The notes beneath the pieces were generated by a model. That model searched no databases. It was not told the DNA's origin and saw only the letters and a program-made list of their open reading frames with translations. Positions 1 to 19,885 of a stretch of 32,000 bases of DNA are shown piece after piece. Positions within the stretch are counted from its first letter, which is position 1, and every line of letters starts with the position of its first letter. Where the stretch lies: assembly GCF_000757865.1 (NCBI RefSeq), contig NZ_CP007754.1:1050001-1082000 (forward strand), written 5' to 3'. The stretch comes from Prochlorococcus sp. MIT 0801 (GTDB lineage Bacteria; Cyanobacteriota; Cyanobacteriia; PCC-6307; Cyanobiaceae). Position numbers and translations under genes: made by a program.

Positions 1-497
1 CAAAAGTCATTACTGACTACAAAACGTCTACAAGTAAAGAAGGTGGCTCGACAAGTTGTGAGGCTTCATTCTCTACTGCGGGTTTAACATTTGGTGCCAG
101 AGTATTTAAAATAGACGATAATGGCTACGTTACATTTTCATTAAGTCCAGAATTAACATCGATTTCAGAAATAATAAATATACCTGGTTGTGGTGCAATA
201 AATATTCTAAGTGTGAGGCGTTTAGATACAGGAACTTTACGAGTAAAAGACTCTCAGACATTAATTTTAACAGGTGTTATATCAAACAGAGATTCAAAGG
301 TCGTAACGAAAACCCCCATATTAGGAGACATTCCAATACTTGGAAGAATATTTAGATCAAATGCAGGTAGTAAAAGAAAAGGGGAATTAATAATTCTTGT
401 TACCCCTAGAATACTAAACGATTCAGTATCAAACACATCAGAAGTCGGCTTTGATCCAAGTAATGAAGAATCAAAAAATTTCCTTAAAAACAAATGA
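1..497 (+). CDS. pilQ: Type IV pilus secretin PilQ, C-terminal part (5' end outside window; codon phase starts at base 3)
   Basis: Frame 3 is open from the window edge. The translation ...RRLDTGTLRVKDSQTLILTGVISNRD...TPILGDIPILGRIFRS...GELIILVTPRIL matches the conserved secretin C-domain pattern. Confidence 0.85.
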   Translation, partial: KVITDYKTSTSKEGGSTSCEASFSTAGLTFGARVFKIDDNGYVTFSLSPELTSISEIINIPGCGAINILSVRRLDTGTLRVKDSQTLILTGVISNRDSKVVTKTPILGDIPILGRIFRSNAGSKRKGELIILVTPRILNDSVSNTSEVGFDPSNEESKNFLKNK

Positions 498-1174
498 AAT
501 ACAATTCACGTTATAAATTAGATCTACTATGGGAAAGAAGAAATAAAAGTAGCAGTACTCAACTTACATTTACCAATACAAAAAAACTTCGCAAATTGGG
601 TTATTATGGTGGTTGTTTCATTGCAGGAATAGGAATATTAATTTTTTCATTAGGCTTATTTCATACTTATAGAAGAATAAAATTTAAAGAAAAATTAGCT
701 TTAGAATCAAAAGAATATCAAGTATTAAAAAGCAAATTTGAATTATTAAAGAAGGAAGTTAATATTATTTATAGTATTAATAATCGAATCGCAAAAGGTA
801 TTATTGGAACTAGGTCTGGTTCATCATTATTATTAGAGTTGCAAAGAATATTGCCAAAAACCACTCAGATAACATCAATCAGAGTAAAAGATAATAATCT
901 AATATTGACTGGCAAAGTAAAAGAACCTTATGGACTTGACCATATAAATTCATTTAAAGTTCAAATTTCAAATTCGTTCTTAATTAATGATCAATCAGTT
1001 TTTTTGTCAAGAATAAGTAGATCAGATCAAAATAAAAACAACCTAAATTTCCTTATATCATCAAAATTCTCAAATCCATCTACATCAACAATATTAGATA
1101 ATTACGAAAGTCTTAAAACCTATGGACTACTTAAACGTGTTCAGTTATTAAAACAAGAGGGTCTAATAAAATGA
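494..1174 (+). CDS. pilN: PilN-like pilus alignment protein (bitopic)
   Basis: ATGA start/stop overlap with pilQ. Short basic N-terminus, one TM (CFIAGIGILIFSLGLF), coiled coil, then ILPKTTQITSIRVKDNNLILTGKV... as in PilN-type proteins. Confidence 0.6.
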   Translation: MKYNSRYKLDLLWERRNKSSSTQLTFTNTKKLRKLGYYGGCFIAGIGILIFSLGLFHTYRRIKFKEKLALESKEYQVLKSKFELLKKEVNIIYSINNRIAKGIIGTRSGSSLLLELQRILPKTTQITSIRVKDNNLILTGKVKEPYGLDHINSFKVQISNSFLINDQSVFLSRISRSDQNKNNLNFLISSKFSNPSTSTILDNYESLKTYGLLKRVQLLKQEGLIK

Positions 1175-1839
1175 CAAATTTATCCTCTAATAAACTAAAA
1201 AGAAAGTTTATTACACCTGAAAGAACACTACTATTCACGCCTATATTAGTTGGTTTAATTATTTTTGTATCTCTAATGACATTTGCCTTTAGGCCTTTAA
1301 TAAAGAAATTAAACGTAGAAGAAGCAAAGATCAAAACATATGAAACTAAGGTTTCATACATACCAATCTACAAAAGATATATTAAAGATATCTCTAATGT
1401 AAGAAATAAGGTAAGCAATCAGCAAAAGAGATTAGTTGACTTAATTTCTGATCCAAATGAATTAGATACAATACTCGCTCAAATAAATAAACTTTGTATA
1501 AAAAATAATATAAATATACTTTCTATTATTCCTCAAGAAATAGTTAACCAATCAAATAGTAAAGATAAAAATGATCCTTTTTTAATCCCTAAAGTAGAGA
1601 AACATGTCTTCAAAATTAATTTAGAAGGTTCATTTAATGGTCTAATTGATTTCCTTAAAGATTTAGAACTACTTCAGACTATTGTAATTTCAGATAATAT
1701 TAATATACTTGTATCATCTGATAATACAAATAAAATTAATGATAAAAACACTATTAATTTAAGAATGAGTTTTGACTTAAGTACTTATGCAAGAAAAGGA
1801 TCAATAAATAGCTTTAAACAAAATAATAAAAATTTATAA
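1171..1839 (+). CDS. pilO: PilO-like pilus alignment protein (bitopic)
   Basis: ATGA overlap with the upstream gene. N-terminal TM (LLFTPILVGLIIFVSLMTFAF), coiled coil, and a C-terminal ...HVFKINLEGSFNGLIDFLKDLELL... segment typical of PilO. Confidence 0.55.
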   Translation: MTNLSSNKLKRKFITPERTLLFTPILVGLIIFVSLMTFAFRPLIKKLNVEEAKIKTYETKVSYIPIYKRYIKDISNVRNKVSNQQKRLVDLISDPNELDTILAQINKLCIKNNINILSIIPQEIVNQSNSKDKNDPFLIPKVEKHVFKINLEGSFNGLIDFLKDLELLQTIVISDNINILVSSDNTNKINDKNTINLRMSFDLSTYARKGSINSFKQNNKNL

Positions 1840-1843
1840 TTAA

Positions 1844-2314
1844 ATGTTATTTTTCTATGTTGGTATTGGATTCGGAATGTTCACCACAATTTTTGCAATG
1901 CTTCAAACTTCAATGATTTTAAATAAAAAAGTATATATAAATGATAAAAAATTGTTAGATCCAAATGAATTCAATTTGAGGAAACCAAATGATAAAAAAT
2001 TTCTTCAACTATTAAATGAAATGAGTGGTGTATCACTTGGTTCGGGTAATGAAATATGTCAGAATATAAAAAATGGATTCACAGATAAATTAGATACCAA
2101 TTACACTATTCTATCTAAATACTCAGAATTGAATATTTATGAACCTGGAATTGAATCAAATACTAATCATTCAAGATTTATCGGTGGGTGTGACTTAGTA
2201 AAAGATTCACATCGAGTTATTATAGTCCCGAACTCTACAGATATAAATACATACAACTTATATTCGTGCATAATTAATACAGAACCTAAATGTATTTTTG
2301 AATTATCTAATTAA
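1844..2314 (+). CDS. Membrane-anchored protein of the pilus operon, function unknown (non-canonical pseudopilin?)
   Basis: 156-aa ORF 4 nt after pilO-like. Hydrophobic N-terminus (FFYVGIGFGMFTTIFAMLQTSMIL) but no G/E+5 prepilin motif. Confidence 0.5.
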   Translation: MLFFYVGIGFGMFTTIFAMLQTSMILNKKVYINDKKLLDPNEFNLRKPNDKKFLQLLNEMSGVSLGSGNEICQNIKNGFTDKLDTNYTILSKYSELNIYEPGIESNTNHSRFIGGCDLVKDSHRVIIVPNSTDINTYNLYSCIINTEPKCIFELSN

Positions 2315-2320
2315 AAACTG

Positions 2321-2533
2321 ATGATAACCTCATTTATTGGCATATTAATATCATCAATGGCAATGACTGCGCTTATATTGTCAATTCAGTCAATTGAAAA
2401 GTCCTATAGAAGAGCTGGAAAACACTCATTAACAAAATATGAAATTGACATAATAAATACAGCAGGTTTAAATACAGATGAGAATATAAATCTTTTAAAA
2501 AAAGATATTGAGAATCTTCCAAAAGAGTATTGA
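2321..2533 (+). CDS. Small membrane-anchored protein of the pilus operon
   Basis: 70-aa ORF with an N-terminal TM (ITSFIGILISSMAMTALILSI), tightly packed between operon genes. No canonical prepilin cleavage motif. Confidence 0.4.
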   Translation: MITSFIGILISSMAMTALILSIQSIEKSYRRAGKHSLTKYEIDIINTAGLNTDENINLLKKDIENLPKEY

Positions 2534-2539
2534 TCAGTT

Positions 2540-3133
2540 ATGTTTAAAAAGAAAAAACAAAATATATTAAATGGAATAAATTTTATTAACAAGAGCAGAG
2601 GAATGTCATTGGTAGAATTTATTATTTCAATAACATTATTATCACTATTATTTACGATTTATGCTGGTTTCGTTGAGGTCGCATCCAGGTTTACAAATAA
2701 ACAGGTAACTAATTTAGATCAATCAAATGGACTCCTAATAGATCACCACTATATGTCATTGACATTAGACAAATATATTAATTTTCTATCTCAACCAGGT
2801 ATAACATCAAATGATATTGATATTATAAAAAATAAAACATTTTCTGGGCTCCCTGTTGGATGTAGCAGATCTCCAAATATTGAATGGAATATACCAGTAA
2901 GTACAAAACCGATAGCTGGAATTGACTGGAAGCCTTCTAATGCTGGCTATGTAATTTGCTTAAAATCAACATCTATTAATGAAAGTTCTTTAGAAGATTT
3001 AATCTCTAAATCACAAGGTAATATGCTTAATGCTCAAACAGGTTTATATTTCTTGTTAGCCCTACCAGATGAAGTATCATTTAATGCATTACCAATGCGA
3101 AAACTATTCTGTAGGCCACATCCATTCTGTTAA
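2540..3133 (+). CDS. Minor pilin / pseudopilin with prepilin-type N-terminal cleavage-methylation motif
   Basis: Motif ...NKSRG|MSLVEFIISITLLSLLF has Gly at -1, Glu at +5 and a hydrophobic helix. The leader is about 21 aa. Confidence 0.65.
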   Translation: MFKKKKQNILNGINFINKSRGMSLVEFIISITLLSLLFTIYAGFVEVASRFTNKQVTNLDQSNGLLIDHHYMSLTLDKYINFLSQPGITSNDIDIIKNKTFSGLPVGCSRSPNIEWNIPVSTKPIAGIDWKPSNAGYVICLKSTSINESSLEDLISKSQGNMLNAQTGLYFLLALPDEVSFNALPMRKLFCRPHPFC

Positions 3134-3138
3134 TTATC

Positions 3139-5055
3139 ATGGCATTAGAACTTACTGAAAATGAAACTTTTTTTGGATTAGATATATCTATTTTTAAAAA
3201 ACAATTTTTCGCATTTAGGAGAGAAATATCTAAAAGGTATTTCTTACTTGAATTTGGAACTAATTATTTAAAATATGGTGAAGCAAGAGTTACAAATGAT
3301 CAAGTATTTTGTACAAAAATCAATCATATTTCTATAGATCAAGATGCCATTGAAAGAGGAACACCTAAGGATGCTGAAAAAATGGCATCATTTCTTAGAC
3401 AAATAATTGATGAAGAAAAAATTTGGGCTCGTCGTATAGCAATTACACTACCACCAGAGGCATCTTTAACAAAGCTAATTTACCTACCAGCAGAACTAAA
3501 CCACTTGGGAGCTAAAGAATATGTAAGCAGCTCATCATCTGGGTTTCAATTTCCTATATCTTTAGAACAAACTGATTTTGATCTTATACCCATTAACAAT
3601 CTTCCCCTGAACATAAAAAATAATAGTAGAGCTTATTCACTTAGTAGCATTCCAAAGAAGCTTATAGACAACGTTATTAATACATTAGAAAAAGCAAATC
3701 TGGAATTACATTCTCTTGATATCGCATCATCATCACTTGAGAGATTAGCTCTATCTACAATAGAAAATTTAGAAGAAAAAGAAGTTTTTATACTTATAGA
3801 ATTAACAAATGAATGTAGTCATTTTCATATAATTTGTAAAAGCGGTCCAATTTATATTTCTTCGCTTGCTGCTATAAAACCTTTTAATCTACTTGAGAAT
3901 TATGAGGGTGAAGATTCTATCGAAGAGGCAATAATCAATAGTAAAGATTATTTACCAATTTCAGAAATGGATCTTAAGGTTCTTTTTGCAGAAATAAAAA
4001 GAGAAATCGATAATTTTCGTTCTGCATATTCACTAGAAATATCCGAAATCAAACTTTCTGGTATAAATAGTAGTCATCCAAATATTAAAGATTTTTTTGA
4101 AAAAAAATTTAAAATTACAACTAGTATTTTAAGATCCTTAACATCTCAAGATATAGGTGATATAAATCTCTCAAAACCAATATGCATGCAAGATCTAAAT
4201 AGAATGATAGGACTTGGATTAAGTATTATACAAACTGAAAATAGTGATCTTCCTAAGTCGAACTTGAAAGAGATAGATATACAGACTATTAGTAAAAATT
4301 TAAATAAATCTAACAATGATATTAGTAAATTAAAAATCGATAATAATAATAAACTGACTTCAAATCCAAACTTATTAAATATAGAGAATTCAACTAATAA
4401 TACAAACAAGGGAGCAAGTGATAAATCATTTGAGGAATATATTGAAGATACTAATAGAAAAAATATTAACAAATTATCATTTGAAGAATTTTTAGAATTG
4501 AAGAAATCATCAAATAAAACTAATCAATCTTTTCTAGAACAAGCTTCTAAAAAATTTAATAATAACAACGATGTTCTTAAAGAAAATATCAATGAAGTAA
4601 TTAACAAAACTATGGTTCAGAATATAGATACTCTTATTAATAAAGATTCTTCATTAGATATTAATAATAGCAAAATAGAAAGGACTGAATTAAATAAACC
4701 TAAGAAAGAAATCAATACAAAAGAAGAGCAAGAAATAAAAAATAATACTATTAACTATAATTCAGAAAAAATTAATACTATTCTAGAAGAATCAAGTAAA
4801 CTAGATAGCAACAAAGAAATAAAAACTAAATCAGATTCCAAAGAACCAGTAAACAACGAAAATGAAATTAATAGTTTCAATGAAATAGTAACCTCAGAAG
4901 ATATAAACAAAGAATTAGATTTTAAGAATAATAAATCTAATGAATTAGAATTAAAAGAAAGTTCAGAAAGTAACAAAAATACATCGCAATCATTACCATC
5001 AAAAAATAATGAAGATATAAATAATAATACGGATTTTAAAATGCCTGAAATCTAA
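3139..5055 (+). CDS. pilM: PilM-like actin-fold pilus assembly protein with about 270-aa N/K/S/E-rich low-complexity C-terminal extension
   Basis: The first ~360 aa show PilM-like blocks (FGLDIS..., ITLPPEASLTKLIYLP, HSLDIASSSLERLA, ILIELTNECSHFHIICKSG). The rest is low-complexity (NNNKLTSNPNLLNIENSTNNTNK...). Confidence 0.6.
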   Translation: MALELTENETFFGLDISIFKKQFFAFRREISKRYFLLEFGTNYLKYGEARVTNDQVFCTKINHISIDQDAIERGTPKDAEKMASFLRQIIDEEKIWARRIAITLPPEASLTKLIYLPAELNHLGAKEYVSSSSSGFQFPISLEQTDFDLIPINNLPLNIKNNSRAYSLSSIPKKLIDNVINTLEKANLELHSLDIASSSLERLALSTIENLEEKEVFILIELTNECSHFHIICKSGPIYISSLAAIKPFNLLENYEGEDSIEEAIINSKDYLPISEMDLKVLFAEIKREIDNFRSAYSLEISEIKLSGINSSHPNIKDFFEKKFKITTSILRSLTSQDIGDINLSKPICMQDLNRMIGLGLSIIQTENSDLPKSNLKEIDIQTISKNLNKSNNDISKLKIDNNNKLTSNPNLLNIENSTNNTNKGASDKSFEEYIEDTNRKNINKLSFEEFLELKKSSNKTNQSFLEQASKKFNNNNDVLKENINEVINKTMVQNIDTLINKDSSLDINNSKIERTELNKPKKEINTKEEQEIKNNTINYNSEKINTILEESSKLDSNKEIKTKSDSKEPVNNENEINSFNEIVTSEDINKELDFKNNKSNELELKESSESNKNTSQSLPSKNNEDINNNTDFKMPEI

Positions 5056-5063: not shown

Positions 5064-6206
5064 TTAACCCATCACATTAATCATTTTGAACATTGGTAAA
5101 TATAAAGAAACTACAATTGTTCCAACTATTCCAGCTACAACCATTATCACCATTGGTTCCATAGCTTTTGTTAGAGATGAAACAGCTTCTTCAACCTCTC
5201 TTTTATAAAAATTAGCTAGATTTTCTGTCATAAATCCTAATCTCCCAGTTTCCTCCCCTATTTTCAACATCGACTTTACTAATTTAGGAAAGACATCATA
5301 ACTATCTAATGAGGAAGATAACTCTTGCCCTTCTTTAACTTTTTGAATGCCATTAGAAAGACATCTCTTCATTCGATCATTTGAACTCGCTGAAATGCAC
5401 CTTTGAATTGCTTCAACAAGAGGTATTCCAGAAGCAATTAAAGTAGATAATGTTTCACATAAGGAGGCTACTTCTGAACGTAGAATCAATGAGCCAAAAA
5501 GAGGGATTTTTAAAATTAAACTATCAACACGAAATCTTCCTGATCTAGATTTATAATATGAACTAAATAAATAAGATGTTATTATTAGAATAATTGGCGT
5601 AAATATAAAAAATTGTATTGAAGTTACAATTTGAGATAATGTTAGCATAAATTCTGTTATTGCTGGTAATTCTGCTCCCATATCAGTAAACATTTTATCA
5701 AAGGTAGGTACAATAAAAATTAATAATCCAAGGCTAACAGTTAATGCTAATACAAGAATAATTACTGGGTAAATCAATGCTCCTTGTATTTGGCTTTTTA
5801 TCTTAGCTTGTTGTTCAATAAGAGAAGCAATTCTGTCTAAAATTTGATCAAGAATACCTCCTGCTTCACCTGCCTCAATTAATCCAACTGTTAAAGAAGG
5901 GAAAACCTTTGGATATTTTGCAAAGCATGTTGATAATTCTTCTCCAGCACTCAATCTTTTAGATATCTGAACTTGAAGAGAGCTAAATTTTTGATCTCTA
6001 GTATTTTCAGAAAGTAATTCAATACCTTGAGCTAAAGGAACACCACTTTGAATAATTACAGCTAATTGTCTAAAGAAAACTAATAAATCATTCTGAGAGA
6101 CCTTGAAATCTTTTGGATTGAATTTAACATTTGATTTTTGTGATCTTATATTTGAATTATTCAATCGAGAATAATCACTTAACTGATTTTCACCATAGGA
6201 AGGCAT
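5064..6206 (-). CDS. pilC: Type IV pilus inner-membrane platform protein PilC (GspF family)
   Basis: 380 aa with two GspF-type repeats and TM segments (...LAQGIELLSE..., ...PLVEAIQRC...), ending ...VVSLYLPMFKMINVMG. Confidence 0.9.
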   Translation of the reverse strand: MPSYGENQLSDYSRLNNSNIRSQKSNVKFNPKDFKVSQNDLLVFFRQLAVIIQSGVPLAQGIELLSENTRDQKFSSLQVQISKRLSAGEELSTCFAKYPKVFPSLTVGLIEAGEAGGILDQILDRIASLIEQQAKIKSQIQGALIYPVIILVLALTVSLGLLIFIVPTFDKMFTDMGAELPAITEFMLTLSQIVTSIQFFIFTPIILIITSYLFSSYYKSRSGRFRVDSLILKIPLFGSLILRSEVASLCETLSTLIASGIPLVEAIQRCISASSNDRMKRCLSNGIQKVKEGQELSSSLDSYDVFPKLVKSMLKIGEETGRLGFMTENLANFYKREVEEAVSSLTKAMEPMVIMVVAGIVGTIVVSLYLPMFKMINVMG

Positions 6207-6212
6207 AGTTGT

Positions 6213-7259
6213 TTAATTGTTAATTAGGGCTTTTGGATTTGATGCTTTACTTAAACCTTCCTCTAACGAAATAATATTGGAATCAATCAAATCCTTAAGA
6301 CATTGTTCTAATGTATTCATACCATCCTTACTACCTGTTTGTAATTGTGAATATATTTGACTCACTTTTCTTTCTCTAACAAGGTTTGAAATCGCGGGAG
6401 TATTGATAAGTAATTCATATGCAAGAGATCTCTTTCCAACATTATTTTTGCAAAGAGTTTGAGACATAATTCCTAATAGAGATGTTGAAACCTGGAGTCT
6501 TGCTTGTTCTTGCTGATCCGCTGGGAATACGTCTACAATTCTCTCAACTGTTTTTGCGGCAGAGGAAGTGTGAAGAGTTCCCAGTACTAAATGACCAGTC
6601 TCAGCTGCAGTTATAGCAAGTTGTATTGTTTCCAAATCTCTCATCTCACCTATATAAATTATGTCAGGATCTTCTCTTAATGCCGCTTTCAAAGCCGAAG
6701 TAAAACTTTTAGTATCTCGTTTAACTTCTCTTTGATGAATTATTGAGTTTTGAGAATGATTAAATTCAAACTCTATAGGATCTTCAATAGTAAGAATATG
6801 TCTCTTTTGTGTTTCAAGTATGCAATTAATAAATGATGCCAAAGTAGTAGATTTACCAGAGCCAGTGGGACCAGTACATAGGACTAAACCTCTATGTTTT
6901 GTAGTCAATTCAATGAATGGTTTAGGTAAACCTAAGTCTTGCCATTTTGGTAATTGATCAGGGAGAATTCTCAAAGTGAGACATCTTTTTTCATTTGCAA
7001 TATATGCATTAATTCTTATTCTTGAGAGTCCGTCTAGGCCAATTGAGGTATCTAAATCTCCTGTTTGATTGTATTGATCTAATTTTTCCTTGTCCAAAAG
7101 CTCACTAAGGAGTTGATCCATATCATTCTTACCAAGTATTTTATCTACTAATTGAATATCGGAATTTACTCTGATTGCAATTTGAGAATCTTCTTCAAGA
7201 TGAATATCAGAAGAATCATGTTTTATCGCATATGCAACTATTTGTCTTGCTACAGACAT
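6213..7259 (-). CDS. pilT: Twitching-motility retraction ATPase PilT
   Basis: 348 aa with Walker A GPTGSGKSTT, LREDPDIIYIGEMRD, and AAETGHLVLGTLHTSSAAKTVERIVDVFP, which is characteristic of PilT. Confidence 0.9.
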   Translation of the reverse strand: MSVARQIVAYAIKHDSSDIHLEEDSQIAIRVNSDIQLVDKILGKNDMDQLLSELLDKEKLDQYNQTGDLDTSIGLDGLSRIRINAYIANEKRCLTLRILPDQLPKWQDLGLPKPFIELTTKHRGLVLCTGPTGSGKSTTLASFINCILETQKRHILTIEDPIEFEFNHSQNSIIHQREVKRDTKSFTSALKAALREDPDIIYIGEMRDLETIQLAITAAETGHLVLGTLHTSSAAKTVERIVDVFPADQQEQARLQVSTSLLGIMSQTLCKNNVGKRSLAYELLINTPAISNLVRERKVSQIYSQLQTGSKDGMNTLEQCLKDLIDSNIISLEEGLSKASNPKALINN

Positions 7260-7286
7260 AGTAAATTAAGTATATATATATGTAAT

Positions 7287-8942
7287 TTAATTATGATCAT
7301 CATTACAGATTTTGCTTAATTCTGAAACGGTTGTAATTTTGTTCTCTATAAGCTTCACAGCGTAAGACTTTAAAGTAATCATTCCTTCTGAAACAGCAAT
7401 TTCTTCGATCTCTTGGGTAGAAAGTTGTTTTTTTATAGCATTTGAAATAGGTCTTGTAATTCTTAACAACTCATAAGAACCAACTCGTCCCTTGTAGCCG
7501 ATACCATTACATCTATTACAAAGAATTCCTTCTTTTTTTCTTTGACTTTTCTCTTCAGCTGTTAAACATGTCGCAACTCTTACAGGAGTACCTCTATTTA
7601 AACCTGTAAAGTCTGCTTCTTCAATAGATAATGGTCTTTCAACGCTACAACTTGGGCATACTTTTCTTAGTAGTCTTTGAGCTAGTACACCTCTTAGAGA
7701 AGCCGTTAACTTATATGGAGGAACTTCCATATCTAATAATCTTGTTAAAGAAGTAGAAGCACTATTTGCATGCAAAGTAGTAAAAACTAAATGCCCTGTT
7801 TCAGCAGCATCCATTGAAGATTCCGCTGTTTCAGGATCTCTAGTTTCACCAATTAGAATTACATCTGGGTCTTGGCGAAGAAAAGTTCTTAACAGATTTG
7901 CAAATGTTTGACCTTTTGCTCTAAGTACAGGAAATTGTTGAATATCTCCACCCATATCATATTCAATCGGATCTTCAGCAGTCACTATATTTAATTCTCC
8001 ATTATCTTTCTCTCTCAAAGCTGAAGCCAAAGTAGTTGATTTTCCTGATCCAGTTGGACCAGAAACGATAACAATCCCATTCGCTTGATTAATAATTTTT
8101 CTAAATTGTGATCTAACATTTTCATCTTGAATAAGTATATCCAGATCAAGAACATCAGTATCGTTATTTAGATACCTAAGAACCATTTTTTCACCATATT
8201 TTCCTGGAGCCGTTGAGCACCTAAAATCAAGAGAATTACCTTCCCAAGTCCTTCGAATTTTTCCATCTTGTGAAGCTCTTTTTTCAGCTATATCCATCTT
8301 GGCCATATTTTTTAGACAAGCTGTTAATTTTAAGCCAGGAAGTTTAGGAATGGATACATAACTTTGAAGAACTCCATCTCTTCTAATTCTAATTTTTATT
8401 TGTTTTTCATGAGGCTCTATATGAATATCTGATGCTCCTTTCTTACAGGCATCTATCAAAACCGTGGCAGCTGCTCTTTGAATTTTATTCCCAAGCATTT
8501 CCGTAGATAAATCTATTTCCTCAATCTCTATATCTTCATCACTATCATCAAAATCAAAACCAACAACTTGATCAGACGAATCATCTACAGAAACATCTAG
8601 TAGAGTTTGAATTACATCGTCTTCTGAAAAATCATAATTTTCTAAACCTTCACTATTAAATATCCTTTCTTCTGAGGCTTGATCCAACAAAGATTGAATT
8701 TTGTCGGGAGCTAGTTCTATAAATGCACATTCATATCCATTACTTGCAATTCTTTGCTTAATTGTATTTCCAATAGTTCCAAGATATGAGATATTACCAA
8801 CTGCTATTGTTATTACTTGACCTTTAGGGGGTAGACTTGGCTCAATTTTTAAAGGTACAACTACATTTTCTCTACACCATTGAAGAGATAAATGTTTATC
8901 AATAAGAGATCTTATTTGAGTGACTTGATAGGTATCAGACAT
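7287..8942 (-). CDS. pilB: Type IV pilus extension ATPase PilB (GspE family)
   Basis: 551 aa with Walker A GPTGSGKSTT, LRQDPDVILIGETRD, the tetracysteine CPSC...CNRC motif and GYKGRVGSYELL. Confidence 0.9.
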   Translation of the reverse strand: MSDTYQVTQIRSLIDKHLSLQWCRENVVVPLKIEPSLPPKGQVITIAVGNISYLGTIGNTIKQRIASNGYECAFIELAPDKIQSLLDQASEERIFNSEGLENYDFSEDDVIQTLLDVSVDDSSDQVVGFDFDDSDEDIEIEEIDLSTEMLGNKIQRAAATVLIDACKKGASDIHIEPHEKQIKIRIRRDGVLQSYVSIPKLPGLKLTACLKNMAKMDIAEKRASQDGKIRRTWEGNSLDFRCSTAPGKYGEKMVLRYLNNDTDVLDLDILIQDENVRSQFRKIINQANGIVIVSGPTGSGKSTTLASALREKDNGELNIVTAEDPIEYDMGGDIQQFPVLRAKGQTFANLLRTFLRQDPDVILIGETRDPETAESSMDAAETGHLVFTTLHANSASTSLTRLLDMEVPPYKLTASLRGVLAQRLLRKVCPSCSVERPLSIEEADFTGLNRGTPVRVATCLTAEEKSQRKKEGILCNRCNGIGYKGRVGSYELLRITRPISNAIKKQLSTQEIEEIAVSEGMITLKSYAVKLIENKITTVSELSKICNDDHN

Positions 8943-8957: not shown

Positions 8958-10283
8958 TTAAAAGCCCATACAGGACCTATACCCGCTTCCATGACAGAGT
9001 GGATCATTTGATAAACCACTACCTTGTTTACACCACATATTAATAAGAAATTTCGGTCCATCTGATTTAGCTAAACATTGAGCATGCGTCGGACAATCGC
9101 CTGCACAATTATTGCCTCCCCCACCATTGCCTCCACCACCATTGCCTCCACCACCATTGCCTCCACCAGTATTAGCACAATTAGAATTATTGTATTCACT
9201 TTCGGTGGTGTATTGAATTTCATCGCACATCCAGAAGGTTTCTCCACAAGTGCCTGGACCTGGATGAGGACCATATTTCCCATCATGAGCTTTTGGGTTG
9301 GCCAATCTTGCTTCATTTCTATTGAAGGAACATTCATCTTCTTGTTGTTGAATTATTTTGGCTTCATTAGCACTAATACATGCATTCATGTCATCTTCAT
9401 CATTTTTTTTATCGCCTAAACAAAAATAATATGTTACCTCGGGTTGACCTGCTCTGACACAACTATTTAACTGACTACTTGACATTGCTCCAGAAAATTC
9501 AGTGGCTTTCTGTGCAAGGATTGCAGCACTACATTCCTTGCCTAAATCTTCTTCCTGTTTTTGTTTATATTCATCTTCATTAGAAACAATATCTCCTTTG
9601 TATAACCAAGTCTCAACTGAGCAATATTCAGTAGAGCATGTGGCAAGAGTACATCCTTGTGTATCAATACTTACATCCCATCTATTTCTTAATCCTGAAC
9701 CTTTAGGAGGACCTAATCTAAAATTACTAAAGTCCGTTTCACATTTTTTAGATTTTTTATCATACTCTTTTTGATACGCCCACTTATCTTTTTGAAGTTG
9801 ACTTGGTCCACAATTAGGACCACCCCATCTTTTACATCTATTAAGGCTAGCTTGATTATCTGCTGGGTCAGATATTTTTGTAACTTGATTATTGGAAGTA
9901 ATTTCATATCCCATTTCAAACAGAATTTTTTCATCAGAACTTATAGGTGTTATATAAAATTCTGAACATTTATCTTTATCAGTTTTAACTTTATATCCTG
10001 TTGGTGAAAGTCGATTGTTATCTATTACAGATGAGGGAGGACTAACTGTCTCTGGGTCAGTTCCACTTCTTGTTGAAGCAAGACATTCGATAAGAGAATT
10101 ATTCATAATTGTCATTGCCTCATCAATCTTTGCGAGTTTTGTCCATTTTGTAATATTTCCTATACCTAATGAACCTAAAATTCCAAGTATTAGTACTACA
10201 AAAGTTAATTCTATTATAGAAAACCCCTCTTCTGAACTAATCAGATGAGGGGGTTTCTTATTAATAGTTTGTATTAAATTCAT
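8958..10283 (-). CDS. Large (441 aa) Cys-rich type IV pilin-like protein with C-terminal GGGGN repeats
   Basis: Prepilin motif ...SSEEG|FSIIELTFVVLILGILG. There are 22 Cys in the globular part and a GGGNGGGGNGGGGNGGGGNN tract. The gene sits between pilA and pilB. Confidence 0.8.
   Translation of the reverse strand: MNLIQTINKKPPHLISSEEGFSIIELTFVVLILGILGSLGIGNITKWTKLAKIDEAMTIMNNSLIECLASTRSGTDPETVSPPSSVIDNNRLSPTGYKVKTDKDKCSEFYITPISSDEKILFEMGYEITSNNQVTKISDPADNQASLNRCKRWGGPNCGPSQLQKDKWAYQKEYDKKSKKCETDFSNFRLGPPKGSGLRNRWDVSIDTQGCTLATCSTEYCSVETWLYKGDIVSNEDEYKQKQEEDLGKECSAAILAQKATEFSGAMSSSQLNSCVRAGQPEVTYYFCLGDKKNDEDDMNACISANEAKIIQQQEDECSFNRNEARLANPKAHDGKYGPHPGPGTCGETFWMCDEIQYTTESEYNNSNCANTGGGNGGGGNGGGGNGGGGNNCAGDCPTHAQCLAKSDGPKFLINMWCKQGSGLSNDPLCHGSGYRSCMGF
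9111..9170 (-). repeat. 15-bp in-frame tandem repeat, 4 units (attgcctccaccacc), encoding the (GGGGN)n tract of the large pilin
   Basis: Direct reading gives units at 9111-9125, 9126-9140, 9141-9155 and 9156-9170. The first and last units are slightly diverged. Confidence 0.9.
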
Positions 10284-10307
10284 CAGAAATTATTAACTAA
10301 TTTCTAA

Positions 10308-10829
10308 CTACCAAACTGAATTTCTACATCCTCTTTCCACAGCATCACCACTAGCAGTACATGTTTTAGCCCCAGTGCCAAGGTTGTATACAAAGCTTGG
10401 ATATTCAGCAGTATTCTCTGAACGAATTTCCATTAAACCAGAACTAGTACAAGTTAGTGGTGTTACAGATGTTGATCTTGTCAGAGTTCCTTGGCCTTGA
10501 TTGTTGAAAACAGTTTGATACCAACCAGCTCCATTTTTGGTACCGTCTCTATATCCATCCAAACTTATCGAAGGAATGTAAGTTCCTGAACCTTGGTCAG
10601 CCATATTTGCTGCACATTCTTTAACAGTTGTAGCAAGAGTAGTAGCAGCAGCAGCAGCTCTTGCTTTACTAGCAATTTTAGTAAACTGTGGAATTGCAAT
10701 AGCCGACAAAACAGCTAATACAGCAACAACAACAACAAGTTCAATTAGAGAAAAACCTTTTTGACCTGGTTTCAAAGATAAAACCTTTTTAACTTTTGAG
10801 CTAGAAAGGTAATTTTGCAACAAATTCAT
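10308..10829 (-). CDS. pilA: Major type IV pilin PilA
   Basis: Motif ...KPGQKG|FSLIELVVVVAVLAVLSAIAIPQF, a C-terminal disulfide loop CTASGDAVERGC, and noticeably GC-richer codon usage than its neighbours. Confidence 0.85.
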   Translation of the reverse strand: MNLLQNYLSSSKVKKVLSLKPGQKGFSLIELVVVVAVLAVLSAIAIPQFTKIASKARAAAAATTLATTVKECAANMADQGSGTYIPSISLDGYRDGTKNGAGWYQTVFNNQGQGTLTRSTSVTPLTCTSSGLMEIRSENTAEYPSFVYNLGTGAKTCTASGDAVERGCRNSVW

Positions 10830-10902: not shown

Positions 10903-11421
10903 TCATGATTCATTTATATTCTCAGTTTCAAAAAGTTTAATTTCAGCTGAATTCTCTTTATATTTGAGTCTTAATACTCTTGTATCAATATCAATACCTT
11001 CTACTACCCAACCATTTGGCAATAAAGAAGTACTCTCTCCTCCTATATCTCCGACCTGAACTGTTCCTGATTGATCATTGTAAGTAACAAAAACATTTAT
11101 CACGTCATTCTCTGCTATTTGACCAGTAAATTTAAAGCTTTCTGGAATTACCAGTACATTTCCCTCGATTACATCAATAGGTAGAAATGGATTATTTCTT
11201 CCTATTGAAAGATTGTCTATTAATTCTTCAGAAGATTTTAGATTTTCTAATTCTGGAACATCTGTTTTTTCAGGAATAGAAGAAAATTCATTCGGAAAAA
11301 CAGGTGGCTTTATTATCTCTGATAAATTTGTATTGTTTGAAGAGCAAGAGCTAATCAGAGGAATAGTTAAGAAAAGAAGCAATAAATAATGCTTGTTAAT
11401 AATAGAAGAATCCTTAATCAA
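10903..11421 (-). CDS. PilP-like pilus lipoprotein
   Basis: Lipobox LISS|C after a hydrophobic leader. It has an NPF motif (GRNNPFLP) and a C-terminal beta-rich domain (FTGQIAENDVINVFVTY...VQVGDIGG...WVVEGIDIDTRVLRL) as in PilP. TTG start in the ORF track. Confidence 0.55.
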   Translation of the reverse strand: MIKDSSIINKHYLLLLFLTIPLISSCSSNNTNLSEIIKPPVFPNEFSSIPEKTDVPELENLKSSEELIDNLSIGRNNPFLPIDVIEGNVLVIPESFKFTGQIAENDVINVFVTYNDQSGTVQVGDIGGESTSLLPNGWVVEGIDIDTRVLRLKYKENSAEIKLFETENINES

Positions 11422-11538: not shown

Positions 11539-12384
11539 TCAAAGATATTTCCACCATAAAATATTTCCAAGTGATTTAATCCAGAATTCGTCACCAAGAA
11601 TCCATACTAAAAAAGTTGAAACACATATAAATGGTCCAAAGGGAATATAATCTCCTCTTCTAATTAAATTTAAACATAATGCTATTACTGAATAAACTGC
11701 ACTAATTAAAAATGATAAAACAATAGTTAATTCTAAACCAATTGTTCCAAGCCATGCTCCACACATTGCAAATAGTTTAATATCACCACCTCCAAATGCA
11801 GGTTTATTGAAGGCAACGAAAACTACCTTACTAAAAATAAAAAATCCAATTATTGAAAAAATATAGGCAAAAAAATGATCTTCTAGTTTGACACTGTTGT
11901 AATCAAAATAGAAAAACTTTGTAATGAGAATTAGTAAAAAACCAATTATTGATCCAGAAAAAGTTAATGAGTCAGGAAGAATCATCTCATCAATATCAAT
12001 TACCGTAAGAACAATTAAGTAAGAAACTAGAATCCAGCTAGAAACCAGTAAAAATAATTCATAGGAAAGATTGTTATAAAAATTTCGATCATAAAAGCAT
12101 AATAGAAATAAAAAAGATGTAATTATTTCAATCAAAGGATATCGAAAAGGAATAGACAAGTTGCAATATCGGCATTTAAATCTTAAAAACAACCAACTAA
12201 GGATAGGAAATAAATCAAAAAAACTAAGTTTTTCTCCACATTTAGGGCAATAACTTCTTTTAAGAATATAAGGCTCTAATTTCGGGAGCCGTAATATAAC
12301 AACATTTAAAAAACTTCCTACACAAGCTCCAAGAATTAATACAAATAATCCATGCATGATATTTATATAGAAAATTGATATCAA
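11539..12384 (-). CDS. pilD: Prepilin peptidase / N-methyltransferase PilD (peptidase A24)
   Basis: Cys motif CPKCGEKL...CRYC, GGGDIKL active-site motif, and multiple TMs. The track start is TTG; an ATG at 12357 (MHGLFVLILG...) is the more likely start. Confidence 0.9.
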   Translation of the reverse strand: MISIFYINIMHGLFVLILGACVGSFLNVVILRLPKLEPYILKRSYCPKCGEKLSFFDLFPILSWLFLRFKCRYCNLSIPFRYPLIEIITSFLFLLCFYDRNFYNNLSYELFLLVSSWILVSYLIVLTVIDIDEMILPDSLTFSGSIIGFLLILITKFFYFDYNSVKLEDHFFAYIFSIIGFFIFSKVVFVAFNKPAFGGGDIKLFAMCGAWLGTIGLELTIVLSFLISAVYSVIALCLNLIRRGDYIPFGPFICVSTFLVWILGDEFWIKSLGNILWWKYL

Positions 12385-12797: not shown

Positions 12798-13417
12798 CTG
12801 TTAAAACATAATATAGGATCATCTTGTATTTCTTCAGTAGAAAAAGAAAAGCTACTTTCAAAGCAACATTACATACTGAAATATGTTTTATTGAAATCTG
12901 AACTTAAACTATCAATGTCATCCAAAGATGAAATCCTTTCTATTGGAAAGCTTTTCCTCCACAGAGAGAATTGACTCATATCTAGAGACAATCCAAGCCC
13001 GACTTTCTGTTTATAACACCAACTGGAAATGCCTATAGATGCAAAAGGTTTTTCTAGACATGTGGTCCTCAGGAGATCTTCTATTGAAAAGCGTCGAAAT
13101 CACAAAGGTCGACAAATTTGAACTCTTAGGTTGAACTTCAGCAATATGCGTTTTCGCTCTTGGCTCAAAATTTACTTGTGAAGGGACTCAAAACGATGAG
13201 CTTTTGACAGACACTTCGATTTATAAAAAATTGAAGAAAAATGGAAAGTAGCATGGATGCAAAGAGTTTCAGGTCAATCAGATATCTCATTATGGAACGA
13301 ATAATTTATATTTCCTTCTTAATGGTTAAGTATTCGTAAATTCTATTTATATTCTTACGCCTGAAGTAATCATTCAAACATAGAGATAATTTAAAAGAGA
13401 AACAGTAATTGTCGTAA

Positions 13418-13594
13418 ATGCAAGAAAAACCCAATGTTGAAGAATTAATTGCAGATTCTATGGTAATGCTCTTGATTAGAGCAGAAAAATTACCTCAAAG
13501 AGAAAGGTTGGCAATTACTCAAGAATTCAGAGAATGGCTTAATGGTAATTGCAAAATTGAAGATATACTGATTCTAGATACAAGAATTAAATAG
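13418..13594 (+). CDS. Small hypothetical protein (58 aa)
   Basis: Manual translation MQEKPNVEELIADSMVMLLIRAEKLPQRERLAITQEFREWLNGNCKIEDILILDTRIK. ATG start, below the ORF-track length cut-off. Confidence 0.35.
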   Translation: MQEKPNVEELIADSMVMLLIRAEKLPQRERLAITQEFREWLNGNCKIEDILILDTRIK

Positions 13595-13691
13595 AATAGC
13601 TACATAAAGTTGATAATTATCACTGTTAGTTAATTAATATTTGAATAATTATTCACCCAATAATCACTTTAAAGTAATTTAAAGGGTAAGA

Positions 13692-13817
13692 CTATACAAT
13701 TCCTGGAATGATCCAGCCTGTTATTCCGTAGTTAATCACAGCTGCAAAGAAGCCCATCATCGCAAGGCGGCCATTCATTTGCTCGGCTGTTTTCCAGTAG
13801 TTAGTTTCTTTGTTCAT
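13692..13817 (-). CDS. hli: High-light-inducible protein (HLIP, CAB-like one-helix protein), 41 aa
   Basis: MNKETNYWKTAEQMNGRLAMMGFFAAVINYGITGWIIPGIV, with the E-x-x-NGR-x-AM motif plus a TM helix. The ATG overlaps the upstream stop (TAATG). Confidence 0.9.
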   Translation of the reverse strand: MNKETNYWKTAEQMNGRLAMMGFFAAVINYGITGWIIPGIV

Positions 13818-13963
13818 TACACAACACCTGGAATGATTTGACCTGTTGTTAGATATGCACCGATGAGTGCCCAGCATCCAACAAATGCTGCGTAACCATT
13901 GAGTCTTTCAGCAATTACTTTGCCTTCTTCTACTCTTGGAGTTTCAGTCGTTTGTTTTTTCAT
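13817..13963 (-). CDS. hli: High-light-inducible protein, 48 aa
   Basis: Manual translation MKKQTTETPRVEEGKVIAERLNGYAAFVGCWALIGAYLTTGQIIPGVV. TAATG overlaps at both ends. Confidence 0.85.
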   Translation of the reverse strand: MKKQTTETPRVEEGKVIAERLNGYAAFVGCWALIGAYLTTGQIIPGVV

Positions 13964-14082
13964 TAAACAACACCTGGGATAAGTTGACCGGTTGTTAGGT
14001 AGATACCTGTTAGTAGAACGAATGCCATCATGGCTGGTCTGCCGATGCTTCTTTCTAGGATTGTTTTGTTAGATGGTTGCAT
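13963..14082 (-). CDS. hli: Short HLIP-like one-helix protein, 39 aa (divergent motif)
   Basis: Manual translation MQPSNKTILERSIGRPAMMAFVLLTGIYLTTGQLIPGVV. It shares the C-terminal TTGQ(I/L)IPGVV with the neighbouring hli genes. Confidence 0.7.
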   Translation of the reverse strand: MQPSNKTILERSIGRPAMMAFVLLTGIYLTTGQLIPGVV

Positions 14083-14102
14083 TGTTATTAGTAGTTATTG
14101 GT

Positions 14103-14309
14103 TTAGAAAATTCCAGGAATGATTTGACCTGTTGTGAAGTATGAAACCAAAAGACTGACCATTCCGATCATTGCCCAACGGCCATTTGTCTTTTCTGCTT
14201 CTTCTGGATAGCTGGTGTAGTCCTCTACAAGCTGTGGCTGTGTTTCACGGCCAAAGATGTTTTGCTTGCCGTACTCAGTGATTACCTGAGAAGAAGATGA
14301 ACTTGTCAT
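14103..14309 (-). CDS. hli: High-light-inducible protein, 68 aa
   Basis: MTSSSSSQVITEYGKQNIFGRE...AEKTNGRWAMIGMVSLLVSYFTTGQIIPGIF. The ATG at 14309 is preferred over the track start at 14339. Confidence 0.85.
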   Translation of the reverse strand: MTSSSSSQVITEYGKQNIFGRETQPQLVEDYTSYPEEAEKTNGRWAMIGMVSLLVSYFTTGQIIPGIF

Positions 14310-14701: not shown

Positions 14702-14707
14702 CTTACA

Positions 14708-15326: not shown

Positions 15327-15416
15327 ATCATAATAATTCTTGATTTGCATAATCTAAGTTAAAAGTAAATACCTACAACCAGCTAAGCATGCAAGAAATA
15401 TTTTTTATAACCAGTA

Positions 15417-17132: not shown

Positions 17133-17151
17133 GTCTTTAACTTGATTTTTT

Positions 17152-19836: not shown

Positions 19837-19885
19837 AATAACCTAAAGATTGCCATTATGTTCTAAAAGATCTGAATATAATATG

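What the first reader, a model, noticed from the sequence alone, without database searches (positions are those of the whole stretch)
8958..10283. Giant (441 aa) Cys-rich pilin encoded directly downstream of pilA
It has a canonical prepilin N-terminus, but the globular part is about three times the usual size. It contains 22 cysteines (an even number, so up to 11 disulfides), acidic and Lys-rich stretches and a Gly/Asn repeat. It sits between pilA and pilB, as a co-transcribed second pilin would. It could be a tip adhesin, an alternative major subunit, or a heavily cross-linked fibre subunit. I do not recognise its globular domain.
Basis: partly seen in the sequence, partly recalled or inferred. 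Interest (0 to 1): 0.75.

Follow-up and report, generated by a model that had tools for sequence, protein, structure and literature searches.

The report
Giant disulfide-rich modular pilin of picocyanobacteria
This Prochlorococcus gene encodes an unusually large type IV pilus subunit: a normal pilin "handle" carrying a 30 kDa cysteine-rich module that resembles nothing known. It is conserved next to pilA in many marine cyanobacteria and probably forms the working end of their pili.

Summary
Window 8958-10283 (-) is an intact 441-aa ORF with a G|FSIIE prepilin motif, 22 Cys and a Gly/Asn repeat. It lies 24 nt after pilA and 15 nt before pilB in Prochlorococcus sp. MIT 0801.

It is not an orphan. 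A profile search found 177 clusters at 50% identity with E<=1e-10, mostly 350-490 aa with 16-28 Cys. Named members come from Prochlorococcus and marine Synechococcus. The order pilA-X-pilB-pilT-pilC holds in loci of 27-55% GC.

A confident AlphaFold2 model (pLDDT 86.9) shows two modules. Residues 21-160 form a pilin module. Residues 161-441 form a ~30 kDa module: a long helix, three homologous beta-hairpin+helix repeats, a disordered Gly/Asn linker and a small Cys knot. The C-module matches nothing in Pfam, PDB, BFVD or phage genomes.

Cys counts are even in 69 of 76 members, and variable Cys appear and disappear in pairs. This points to intramolecular disulfides, not fibre cross-links.

It is the fastest-evolving gene of the cluster (43-44% identity against 85-90% for PilB and PilT).

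My best reading is a modular minor pilin displayed at the pilus tip, working like TcpB/CofB or S. sanguinis PilB but unrelated to them in fold. That makes it a new variant of a known kind. Its location in the pilus and its ligand are untested.

The parts
8958..10283 (-). Gene for the 441-aa giant Cys-rich pilin. The mature protein is 421 aa, 45.7 kDa, pI 5.0.
10224..10283 (-). Class III signal (leader) peptide, residues 1-20, ending in Gly20. Predicted PilD cleavage falls before Phe21.
   Evidence: Read directly from the sequence. G20 and E25 are nearly invariant or invariant in the family.
9804..10223 (-). Pilin module, residues 21-160. It comprises the alpha1 helix (23-72), an alpha-beta loop, a 4-stranded sheet (97-139) and a helix with the C150-C158 pair. 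C67 and C106 are invariant.
   Evidence: AF2 model, pLDDT >90 over this region. The top Foldseek PDB hits are T4a pilins, but with E 0.3-1.4. hhalign against the PilA family gives probability 99%, driven by alpha1. This region is 66% identical among close relatives.
9636..9803 (-). Start of the C-terminal module, residues 161-216. It contains a long helix (162-190), a strand (197-201) and a lineage-variable insert carrying the C211/C216 pair.
9168..9635 (-). Three homologous beta-hairpin + alpha-helix Cys-containing repeats: R1 217-262, R2 272-330, R3 338-372.
   Evidence: Profile-profile hhalign gives probability 96-97% and E 5e-10 to 7e-9 for all three pairs. The secondary structure comes from the AF2 model.
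9102..9167 (-). Disordered Gly/Asn linker, residues 373-394, encoded by a 15-nt in-frame tandem repeat (9111-9168, 3.9 copies, 97% match).
   Evidence: (pLDDT <50). Its length varies across the family.
8961..9101 (-). C-terminal Cys knot of about 47 aa, made of four short helices. C403, C418, C430 and C438 are conserved; C393 and C397 are extra in this strain. It ends in a conserved C-M-G-like C-terminus.
   Evidence: It is the most variable region, 25% identical among close relatives.
10308..10829 (-). pilA, the presumed major pilin (173 aa; mature 15.4 kDa; 4 Cys). It is listed as PilA1 (Pro_MIT0801_1246) by Aguilo-Ferretjans et al.
10903..11421 (-). Conserved 172-aa predicted lipoprotein (signal ...LISS|C) of unknown family. 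It always accompanies pilA and the giant pilin in Prochlorococcus-type loci.
11539..12384 (-). pilD, the prepilin peptidase (A24_N_bact + Peptidase_A24).
5064..8942 (-). pilB (7287-8942), pilT (6213-7259) and pilC (5064-6206): the extension ATPase, retraction ATPase and platform protein, directly downstream of the giant pilin.
3..5055 (+). Convergent assembly operon. It holds the secretin 3' end (3-497, runs off the window), a PilN-like ORF (494-1174), a PilO/GspM-like ORF (1171-1839), orf156, orf70, a 197-aa pilin-like protein with G|MSLVE (2540-3133), and a 638-aa PilM-like protein.

Best explanation
The gene encodes a bimodular ('modular') type IV pilin belonging to the PilA/PilB/PilT/PilC/PilQ pilus machine encoded around it.

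Shown or strongly supported:
- It carries a class III signal peptide with Glu5, and a prepilin peptidase is encoded in the same cluster.
- Residues 21-160 form a pilin-sized module whose alpha1 helix closely resembles that of the adjacent PilA.
- Residues 161-441 form a separate module of about 30 kDa: a long helix, three homologous hairpin+helix repeats, a flexible Gly/Asn linker and a small Cys knot. It is held together by about 9-11 intramolecular disulfides.
- The protein family is conserved in the position immediately upstream of pilB across Prochlorococcus and marine Synechococcus.

Inferred mechanism:
- PilD cleaves the leader.
- The pilin module docks through alpha1 and Glu5 into the PilA filament as a low-abundance subunit. 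The most likely position is first subunit at the tip, because a 30 kDa C-terminal appendage is hard to fit in the filament body.
- The rigid, disulfide-stapled and rapidly diverging C-module is thereby presented outward as the contact or adhesive end, and possibly also as the assembly primer. Pilus extension and PilT-driven retraction then act on whatever it binds.

Functionally it would work like TcpB/CofB of type IVb pili or PilB of S. sanguinis, with an unrelated and previously undescribed effector module.
For: - Identity and motif.
- PilD, PilB, PilT, PilC, the secretin and PilM/N/O-like genes lie in the same cluster.
- N_methyl (PF07963) is detected in 56 of 76 family members, and no other Pfam family recurs.
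- A PDB profile search hits only the alpha1 of solved pilins.
- The AF2 model with 76 sequences has mean pLDDT 86.9 and 278 residues at >=90. It shows alpha1, a 4-stranded sheet and then a distinct C-terminal architecture.
- The five best Foldseek PDB hits are all T4a pilins and cover only the N-module.
- PilA and the giant pilin share 35% identity over the leader plus alpha1, including the alpha1-C Cys.
- The three internal repeats are homologous at hhalign probability 96-97%.
- Even Cys counts in 69 of 76 members and paired gain/loss of Cys support intramolecular disulfides.
- In Synechococcus-type loci a DsbA-family gene flanks the cluster.
- Synteny pilA-X-pilB(-pilT-pilC) holds in L001-L005 and in metagenomic loci of 27-55% GC. 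pilA lies upstream in 22 of 24, and pilB lies directly downstream wherever the contig continues.
- Within Prochlorococcus the giant pilin is 43-44% identical, against PilA 51-63%, the 197-aa pilin 62-66%, PilC 77-79% and PilB/PilT 85-90%.
- Within the protein, the pilin module is 66% identical and the distal parts 25-49%. This is the pattern expected for a conserved docking module carrying an exposed effector.
- Precedent from the literature: bulky modular pilins are argued to fit only at the tip (PMC8179133). TcpB and CofB are large pilins with disulfide-stabilised C-terminal domains and flexible linkers, retain Glu5, and are present at about one per pilus (PMC5207764).
Against: - No experimental data exist for this family: no proteomics, localisation or mutant.
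- The Foldseek pilin hits are not statistically significant (E 0.3-1.4), and the globular part of the pilin module has no significant sequence similarity to PilA on its own.
- Glu5 is retained, so incorporation along the filament, not only at the tip, is possible.
- Model coordinates and PAE were not available to me. I could not test steric compatibility with the filament body, and I could not read disulfide pairings from the model.
- The cluster also encodes other candidate minor pilins (the 197-aa protein, perhaps orf156 and orf70). The giant pilin therefore need not be the primer.
- Fast divergence could reflect relaxed constraint rather than diversifying selection.
Confidence: 0.55

Rival explanations
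1. It is a second major (co-polymerising or alternative) subunit. Many or all positions in the fibre would carry the 30 kDa module on its linker, giving a thick 'bottle-brush' pilus. Such a fibre could, for example, raise hydrodynamic drag or shield PilA.
For: Glu5 and a PilA-like alpha1 allow incorporation anywhere in the filament. The gene follows pilA after 24 nt with no terminator-like site, so it could be transcribed at a similar level. One metagenomic variant (L029) has the big pilin as the only pilin upstream of pilB. Pili of marine picocyanobacteria are proposed to act through drag (PMC7994388).
Against: A small canonical PilA is retained next to it in 22 of 24 loci. Bulky modular pilins studied so far are low-abundance tip subunits. 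Making a 421-aa, 22-Cys subunit in bulk would be costly for a streamlined oligotroph. The pili imaged in marine Synechococcus are thin (~6 nm), although that strain has a different cluster type.
Confidence: 0.2
2. It is a periplasmic pseudopilus-type component, as its database name 'type II secretion system protein' suggests. It would act as a piston tip or adaptor for secreting another protein rather than as a surface adhesin.
For: The NCBI name. CofB and TcpB also act as adaptors for secreted CofJ and TcpF. A conserved 172-aa exported lipoprotein is always co-located with it.
Against: The cluster has PilT, a PilQ-type secretin and a PilA that others have already classed as the pilus major pilin. 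There are no T2SS-specific GspC/L/K or GspH hits. The database name is the generic label given to any N_methyl protein.
Confidence: 0.08
3. The Cys-rich module is a metal-binding (Fe, Zn or Cu) or redox module rather than a disulfide-stapled scaffold.
For: Cys content is 5%, with short-spaced Cys motifs such as CxxxxC and CxxxC.
Against: The protein is exported to an oxidising compartment. Cys counts are even in 69 of 76 members and Cys are gained and lost in pairs. No His/Cys metal-site pattern is conserved. A DsbA-family gene neighbours the cluster in Synechococcus-type loci.
Confidence: 0.05
4. It is a decaying or mis-annotated gene with no function in this strain.
For: The cluster belongs to the flexible genome: LLI relatives NATL1A, NATL2A and PAC1 lack pilus genes. 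The gene contains a slippage-prone tandem repeat.
Against: The ORF is intact at full length. 14-18 Cys positions and the repeat architecture are conserved down to 22-26% identity, with conserved synteny. The tandem repeat unit is 15 nt, so copy-number changes stay in frame.
Confidence: 0.02

Closest known systems
Type IVb minor pilins TcpB (V. cholerae) and CofB/LngB (ETEC)
   Same: They are large pilins (TcpB 423 aa) and retain Glu5. A pilin-sized N-module is followed by C-terminal domains joined by flexible linker(s) and stabilised by disulfides. They are low-abundance, tip-associated initiators and adaptors (PMC5207764; PMC8179133). From my own knowledge, not checked here: their genes directly follow the major pilin gene.
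   Different: There is no sequence or fold similarity beyond alpha1: CofB and TcpB are absent from the PDB profile and Foldseek hits. Their C-domains are beta-repeat and beta-sandwich, whereas this one is helix/hairpin repeats with about 9 disulfides. The machinery here is T4a-like with a PilT retraction ATPase, whereas TCP has none.
Modular pilins sensu Raynaud et al. 2021 (S. sanguinis PilB with vWA, PilC with lectin)
   Same: The design is the same: a small pilin 'carrier' module with a bulky C-terminal 'effector' module. [quoted passage not shown]
   Different: The effector module here matches no known domain, whereas PilB and PilC carry recognisable vWA and lectin domains. The host is a diderm planktonic phototroph.
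GspK / PilX-type large capping minor pilins
   Same: It is the largest pilin of its system and a candidate first subunit of the filament.
   Different: GspK lacks Glu5 and carries its alpha-domain as an insertion inside the beta-sheet. This protein keeps Glu5 (invariant in 76 of 76), its extra module is C-terminal, and it gives no T2SSK Pfam hit.
PilA1-PilE pilin pair of Synechococcus sp. WH7803 (Aguilo-Ferretjans et al. 2021)
   Same: It is a second pilin encoded next to the major pilin of a marine picocyanobacterial pilus. PilE co-occurs with PilA1 in exoproteomes.
   Different: WH7803 PilE is 167 aa and aligns to this family only over alpha1 (48 columns). That study's BLAST assigned 'PilE' in MIT 0801 to another gene, Pro_MIT0801_1509. 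The gene studied here is not among the genes that study lists for MIT0801 (supplement row). It belongs to a different cluster type.

Membership tests
Type IV pilin superfamily (class III signal peptide proteins) | A short hydrophilic leader ending in Gly, followed by about 21 hydrophobic residues with Glu at mature position 5 | tested here: met
   The sequence reads ...SSEEG20|FSIIE25LTFVVLILGILGSLGIG. G20 is nearly invariant and E25 invariant across 76 members.
Type IV pilin superfamily (class III signal peptide proteins) | Match to the N-terminal methylation motif models (Pfam PF07963 / TIGR02532) | tested here: inconclusive
   The window protein itself gives no Pfam hit at E<=0.01, and only a weak NCBIfam PilA N-terminus hit (E 5.5e-4). 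However, 56 of 76 family members match PF07963, and the family profile hits the alpha1 of solved pilins.
Type IV pilin superfamily (class III signal peptide proteins) | A cognate prepilin peptidase and T4P assembly machinery are available | tested here: met
   PilD, PilB, PilT, PilC, the secretin and PilM/N/O-like genes are in the same cluster.
Type IV pilin superfamily (class III signal peptide proteins) | Pilin fold: a long alpha1 packed on a 4-stranded antiparallel sheet | tested here: inconclusive
Type IV pilin superfamily (class III signal peptide proteins) | Actual cleavage, N-methylation and incorporation into a filament | not testable with these tools
   This needs pilus proteomics or N-terminal sequencing.
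Modular pilins (Raynaud et al. 2021) | An N-terminal pilin module followed by an additional structural module | tested here: met
   The AF2 domain layout and the internal repeats show this. The conservation profiles of the two parts differ.
Modular pilins (Raynaud et al. 2021) | [quoted passage not shown] | tested here: not met
   Residues 161-441 match no Pfam family even at E<=1. No Pfam family recurs in the 76 members apart from N_methyl. There is no PDB or BFVD fold match. This places it with the 'unsignatured' modular pilins such as CofB and ComZ mentioned in that paper.
Modular pilins (Raynaud et al. 2021) | Tip display and a direct role in binding a ligand | not testable with these tools
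   This needs localisation and binding experiments.
TcpB/CofB type IVb minor pilins | Sequence or fold homology of the C-terminal beta-repeat / beta-sandwich domains | tested here: not met
   CofB and TcpB are absent from the PDB profile hits and the Foldseek hits. The model is helix/hairpin-rich.
TcpB/CofB type IVb minor pilins | A large Glu5-bearing pilin encoded directly after the major pilin gene | tested here: met
TcpB/CofB type IVb minor pilins | Type IVb machinery without a retraction ATPase | tested here: not met
   A PilT homologue is present (348 aa, T2SSE, E 4e-51).
GspK / T2SSK-like capping pilins | No Glu5; an alpha-domain inserted within the beta-sheet; Pfam T2SSK | tested here: not met
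   Glu5 is invariant. The extra module is C-terminal. There is no T2SSK hit.
FimT/FimU (GspH-like) minor pilins (the name given to the Synechococcus sp. N32 homologue) | Match to GspH/FimT domain models | tested here: not met
   No such Pfam or NCBIfam hit was found for the window protein or for any of the 76 members.
PilE of Synechococcus WH7803 | Homology beyond the generic alpha1 | tested here: not met
   hhalign of WH7803 PilE against the family profile aligns only 48 alpha1 columns.

The most novel reading that the evidence does not exclude
The conserved giant pilin could be the functional business end of a widespread, so far uncharacterised class of picocyanobacterial type IV pilus. Its previously unseen disulfide-stapled repeat fold would bind a specific environmental ligand, such as particles, other cells, polysaccharide or DNA, or would serve as the contact point exploited by cyanophages and grazers. 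Either role would explain why it evolves faster than the major pilin itself. Alternatively, it could polymerise along the fibre to build an unusually thick, rigid, drag-enhancing pilus.
Probability: 0.2. Interest if true: 0.75.

Novelty: new variant of a known kind. Interest (0 to 1): 0.58.

Why it matters
Type IV pili were recently proposed to keep Prochlorococcus and Synechococcus suspended, to protect them from grazers and to raise phage encounter rates (PMC7994388; bioRxiv 10.1101/2025.09.20.677514). Those studies considered only small pilins of a different cluster type. In the cluster type found in MIT 0801, in many wild Prochlorococcus and in some Synechococcus, this work shows an obligatory partner of PilA: a 40-50 kDa disulfide-rich modular pilin whose effector module matches no known domain. 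That protein is the obvious candidate for what the pilus touches. It is also a testable target for adhesion, phage-receptor and grazing experiments, and it may represent a new extracellular fold.

Tried and rejected
- Pfam, NCBIfam and PHROGs scans of the whole protein and of residues 161-441 gave nothing beyond weak N-terminal pilin signals.
- A Pfam scan of all 76 family members found only N_methyl recurring.
- A PDB sequence-profile search matched only alpha1.
- Foldseek of two AF2 models against PDB and of the better model against BFVD found nothing for the C-module.
- tblastn of the C-module against 50,697 phage genomes gave no match.
- I considered that the gene is the 'PilE' of Aguilo-Ferretjans et al. 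and rejected this.
- The promoter/terminator scan was uninformative in this AT-rich DNA: promoter-like sites were at the shuffle level and there were no terminators.
- hhalign of the globular part of the pilin module against PilA, without alpha1, was not significant. Paralogy with PilA beyond alpha1 is therefore unproven.
- Scanning metagenome contigs with the broad alignment A2 failed because no stretch was conserved enough. A sub-alignment worked.
- Two cluster look-ups for organism names returned almost only unnamed metagenomic proteins.
- A DsbA-family gene was not found among the window ORFs scanned. The DsbA link therefore rests on two Synechococcus-type loci only.
- Literature searches for a described cysteine-rich or large pilin in cyanobacteria found nothing relevant.
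Full report
**Observation**

The ORF at window 8958-10283 on the minus strand is real. It is 441 aa, starts with ATG and has 22 cysteines (5%). The N-terminus reads MNLIQTINKKPPHLISSEEG|FSIIELTFVVLILGILGSLGIG. This is a class III (prepilin) signal with Gly at -1 and Glu at mature position 5.

The Gly/Asn run at residues 373-392 is encoded by a nearly perfect 15-nt tandem repeat of 3.9 copies at 9111-9168. The gene starts 24 nt after a 173-aa pilA (10308-10829) and ends 15 nt before pilB (7287-8942). No terminator-like hairpin was found anywhere in the operon.

The protein is 100% identical to a protein of Prochlorococcus sp. MIT 0801 annotated only as 'type II secretion system protein'. The base composition of about 33% GC, the hli genes and psbA in the window agree with that origin.

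**Genomic setting**

The minus strand carries, in order:
- pilD
- a 172-aa predicted lipoprotein
- pilA
- the giant pilin
- pilB
- pilT
- pilC

Converging on it, the plus strand carries:
- the 3' end of a secretin gene, whose frame is open to the window edge
- PilN-like and PilO/GspM-like ORFs
- orf156 and orf70
- a 197-aa pilin-like protein (G|MSLVE)
- a 638-aa PilM-like protein

This is a compact but complete T4a-like pilus system with a retraction ATPase.

**The gene is a member of a sizeable, undescribed family**

A word-indexed search found 24 relatives at 37-50% identity. An exhaustive HMMER profile search of 1.84 billion cluster representatives found 177 clusters with E<=1e-10 and 79 with E<=1e-30. 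Most full-length members are 350-490 aa, carry a G-F/Y-S/T-L-x-E motif and have 16-28 Cys.

Hits that match only the C-terminal region look like 5'-truncated gene fragments from short contigs. I therefore saw no evidence that the module occurs outside this pilin family.

Nearly all members come from unnamed metagenome contigs. The named ones are:
- Prochlorococcus: MIT 0801, and single-cell genomes AG-402-I20 and AG-436-C14.
- Marine Synechococcus: MU1617 and N32.

Metagenomic loci range from 27% to 55% GC.

**Synteny**

In L001-L003 (Prochlorococcus) the order pilD - lipoprotein - pilA - X - pilB - pilT - pilC, with the convergent assembly operon, is identical to the window.

In Synechococcus MU1617 (L004) and a TARA scaffold (L005), the giant pilin is only 24-26% identical. 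Even so, the order pilA - X - pilB - pilT - pilC is kept, and a DsbA/Thioredoxin_4 gene flanks the cluster.

Among 24 further metagenomic loci, a PilA-like gene lies upstream in 22. pilB follows directly wherever the contig continues. In the lowest-GC loci the lipoprotein homologue sits between pilA and X. One variant (L029) has no pilA upstream.

The published survey of picocyanobacterial pili lists the window's pilA as PilA1 (Pro_MIT0801_1246). It assigns 'PilE' to an unrelated gene elsewhere in the genome (Pro_MIT0801_1509). The giant pilin is not among the genes its supplementary table lists for MIT0801. WH7803 PilE itself is 167 aa and aligns to this family only over alpha1. Literature searches and a recent review gave no description of the family.

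**Architecture**

With a 76-sequence alignment, AlphaFold2 gave a confident model: mean pLDDT 86.9, with 278 residues at >=90. A 24-sequence run gave the same secondary structure at pLDDT 77.6.

- *Pilin module.* Residues 23-72 form a continuous alpha1 helix. Residues 97-139 form four strands. A helix follows that carries C150 and C158.
- *C-terminal module.* From residue 161 the chain forms a 29-residue helix. Three units follow, each a beta-hairpin plus a helix: 223-260, 284-328 and 350-365. Residues 373-392 are a disordered segment (pLDDT <50). Residues 395-441 form four short helices.
- *Internal repeats.* Profile-profile comparison of sub-alignments shows the three hairpin+helix units are homologous to one another. 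Probability is 96-97% and E is 5e-10 to 7e-9. The shared pattern is C-x3-[WYF]-x-[CF]-x-G-x5-[ED]-x2-[YM].
- *Fold searches.* Foldseek against PDB returned T4a pilins as the best five hits: P. aeruginosa 1244 and P1 PilA, Francisella PilE (two chains) and A. baumannii PilA. They cover only about the first 130 residues, and E is 0.3-1.4, which is not significant. Nothing matched the C-module. BFVD gave nothing.
- *Sequence searches.* Pfam (even at E<=1), NCBIfam, PHROGs, a PDB sequence profile and a phage tblastn gave no match for the C-module.

**Cysteines**

Across the 76 members:
- C67, C106 and C275 are invariant.
- C150, C158, C181, C221, C251, C318, C346, C353 and C369 are present in at least 90%.
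- C403, C418, C430 and C438 are present in most members that have those alignment columns.

Mature proteins have an even number of Cys in 69 of 76 cases. Variable Cys co-occur in pairs: C150-C158 (phi 1.0), C288-C302 (0.95), C181-C221 (0.74) and C211-C216 (0.69). The protein is exported to an oxidising compartment, and a DsbA-family gene neighbours the cluster in two Synechococcus-type loci. Together these point to 9-11 intramolecular disulfides, not inter-subunit cross-links or metal sites. This is an inference. I had no access to model coordinates to check S-S geometry.

**Evolutionary behaviour**

The table gives identity between MIT 0801 and three other Prochlorococcus-type loci.

| Protein | Identity |
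|---|---|
| Giant pilin | 43-44% |
| PilA | 51-63% |
| 197-aa pilin | 62-66% |
| PilC | 77-79% |
| PilB | 85-88% |
| PilT | 88-90% |

Within the giant pilin, among close relatives:
- alpha1 and the pilin globular part are 66% identical;
- the long helix and R1-R3 are 32-49% identical;
- the C-terminal knot is 25% identical.

PilA and the giant pilin share 35% identity over the leader plus alpha1, including the Cys at the end of alpha1. An hhalign of whole pilin modules extends in register through the sheet (probability 99%). That score is driven by alpha1, and the globular part alone is not significant.

A conserved docking module carrying a rapidly diverging, Cys-framed distal module is the signature expected of an exposed effector on a conserved carrier.

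**Interpretation**

The protein is a type IV pilin of this machine, and it is bimodular. I hold that with about 0.9 confidence.

How it works is inferred. The closest functional precedents are the large minor pilins TcpB and CofB. They have a pilin-sized N-domain, C-terminal domains on flexible linkers stabilised by disulfides, and Glu5. They are present at about one copy per pilus, initiate assembly and act as adaptors (PMC5207764). A further precedent is the modular pilins of S. sanguinis, for which modelling suggests that only the tip can accommodate the bulky module (PMC8179133).

I therefore favour a low-abundance, tip-displayed subunit whose C-module is the contact or adhesive end and possibly also the assembly primer (0.55).

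It is not a member of the TcpB/CofB, GspK, FimT/GspH or WH7803-PilE families. The defining sequence and fold features were tested and not met. In addition, the machinery has PilT, and Glu5 is retained.

The rivals are:
- a co-major subunit decorating the whole fibre (0.2);
- a T2SS-like periplasmic or secretion role (0.08);
- a metal-binding module (0.05);
- a decaying gene (0.02, essentially excluded by conservation).

**Novelty and score**

Modular pilins are a known kind, and their discoverers predicted that many would carry unsignatured modules. The existence of one more is therefore not a categorical surprise.

What is new:
- a large, conserved and apparently undescribed family, found here in Prochlorococcus and marine Synechococcus and otherwise only on unnamed metagenome contigs;
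- an effector module with no detectable relative, built from three hairpin-helix repeats and about nine conserved disulfides;
- its fixed position between pilA and pilB in one whole class of marine cyanobacterial pilus clusters.

I rate it a new variant of a known kind, with interest 0.58.

**Limits**

Noticed in passing
L004 20099-20824; L005 11322-12080: In the two Synechococcus-type loci long enough to see it, a DsbA/Thioredoxin_4 family gene sits immediately next to the pilus cluster, beside the PilN-like gene. It may be a dedicated oxidase for the Cys-rich pilin. No such gene was found among the window ORFs scanned.
   Followed up: partly
window 10903-11421 (-): A 172-aa ORF with a lipoprotein-type signal (...LISS|C) matches nothing in Pfam, NCBIfam or PHROGs. 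It is conserved at about 50% identity in Prochlorococcus loci. In the lowest-GC loci its homologue lies between pilA and the giant pilin, so it travels with the two pilins.
   Followed up: partly
window 9111-9168: The Gly/Asn linker is encoded by a 15-nt tandem repeat (3.9 copies, 97% match). Slippage would change linker length in frame, and the linker's length and composition differ widely between family members.
   Followed up: partly
window 12800-32000: The pilus cluster abuts an island-like stretch. It holds three hli (high-light-inducible) genes at 13692-14339, psbA at 16050-17132, and many short orphan ORFs. No tRNA gene was found in the window. According to the supplement of PMC7994388, the closest LLI strains (NATL1A, NATL2A, PAC1) have no pilus genes, so the cluster belongs to the flexible genome.
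   Followed up: partly
window 3139-5055 (+): The PilM-like protein is 638 aa. Only its first ~330 residues match PilM models. The rest is a long Asn/Lys/Glu/Ser-rich low-complexity tail whose length varies between loci (562-724 aa homologues).
   Followed up: no
window 10284-10310: The 24-nt pilA-giant pilin spacer contains an AT-rich palindrome (AGAAATTAGTTAATAATTTCT), also flagged as an 11-nt repeat of 2.1 copies. It could modulate the expression ratio of the two pilins.
   Followed up: no
L029 1736-2692 and 6615-7034: A variant cluster (48% GC) has a shorter family member (318 aa, 14 Cys) as the only pilin upstream of pilB. A different pilin-like ORF follows pilC.
   Followed up: no
window 21711-22253 (-) and 24111-24533 (-): Two island ORFs of 180 and 140 aa look like paralogues. 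They share a YVRG...K.YI.RKDCPV.N motif. One gives a weak DUF4326 hit.
   Followed up: no
outside the window (Pro_MIT0801_1509, sequence in the supplement of PMC7994388): The same genome encodes another large pilin, about 330 aa, with a different C-terminal region. It may be a second, different modular pilin in this strain.
   Followed up: no
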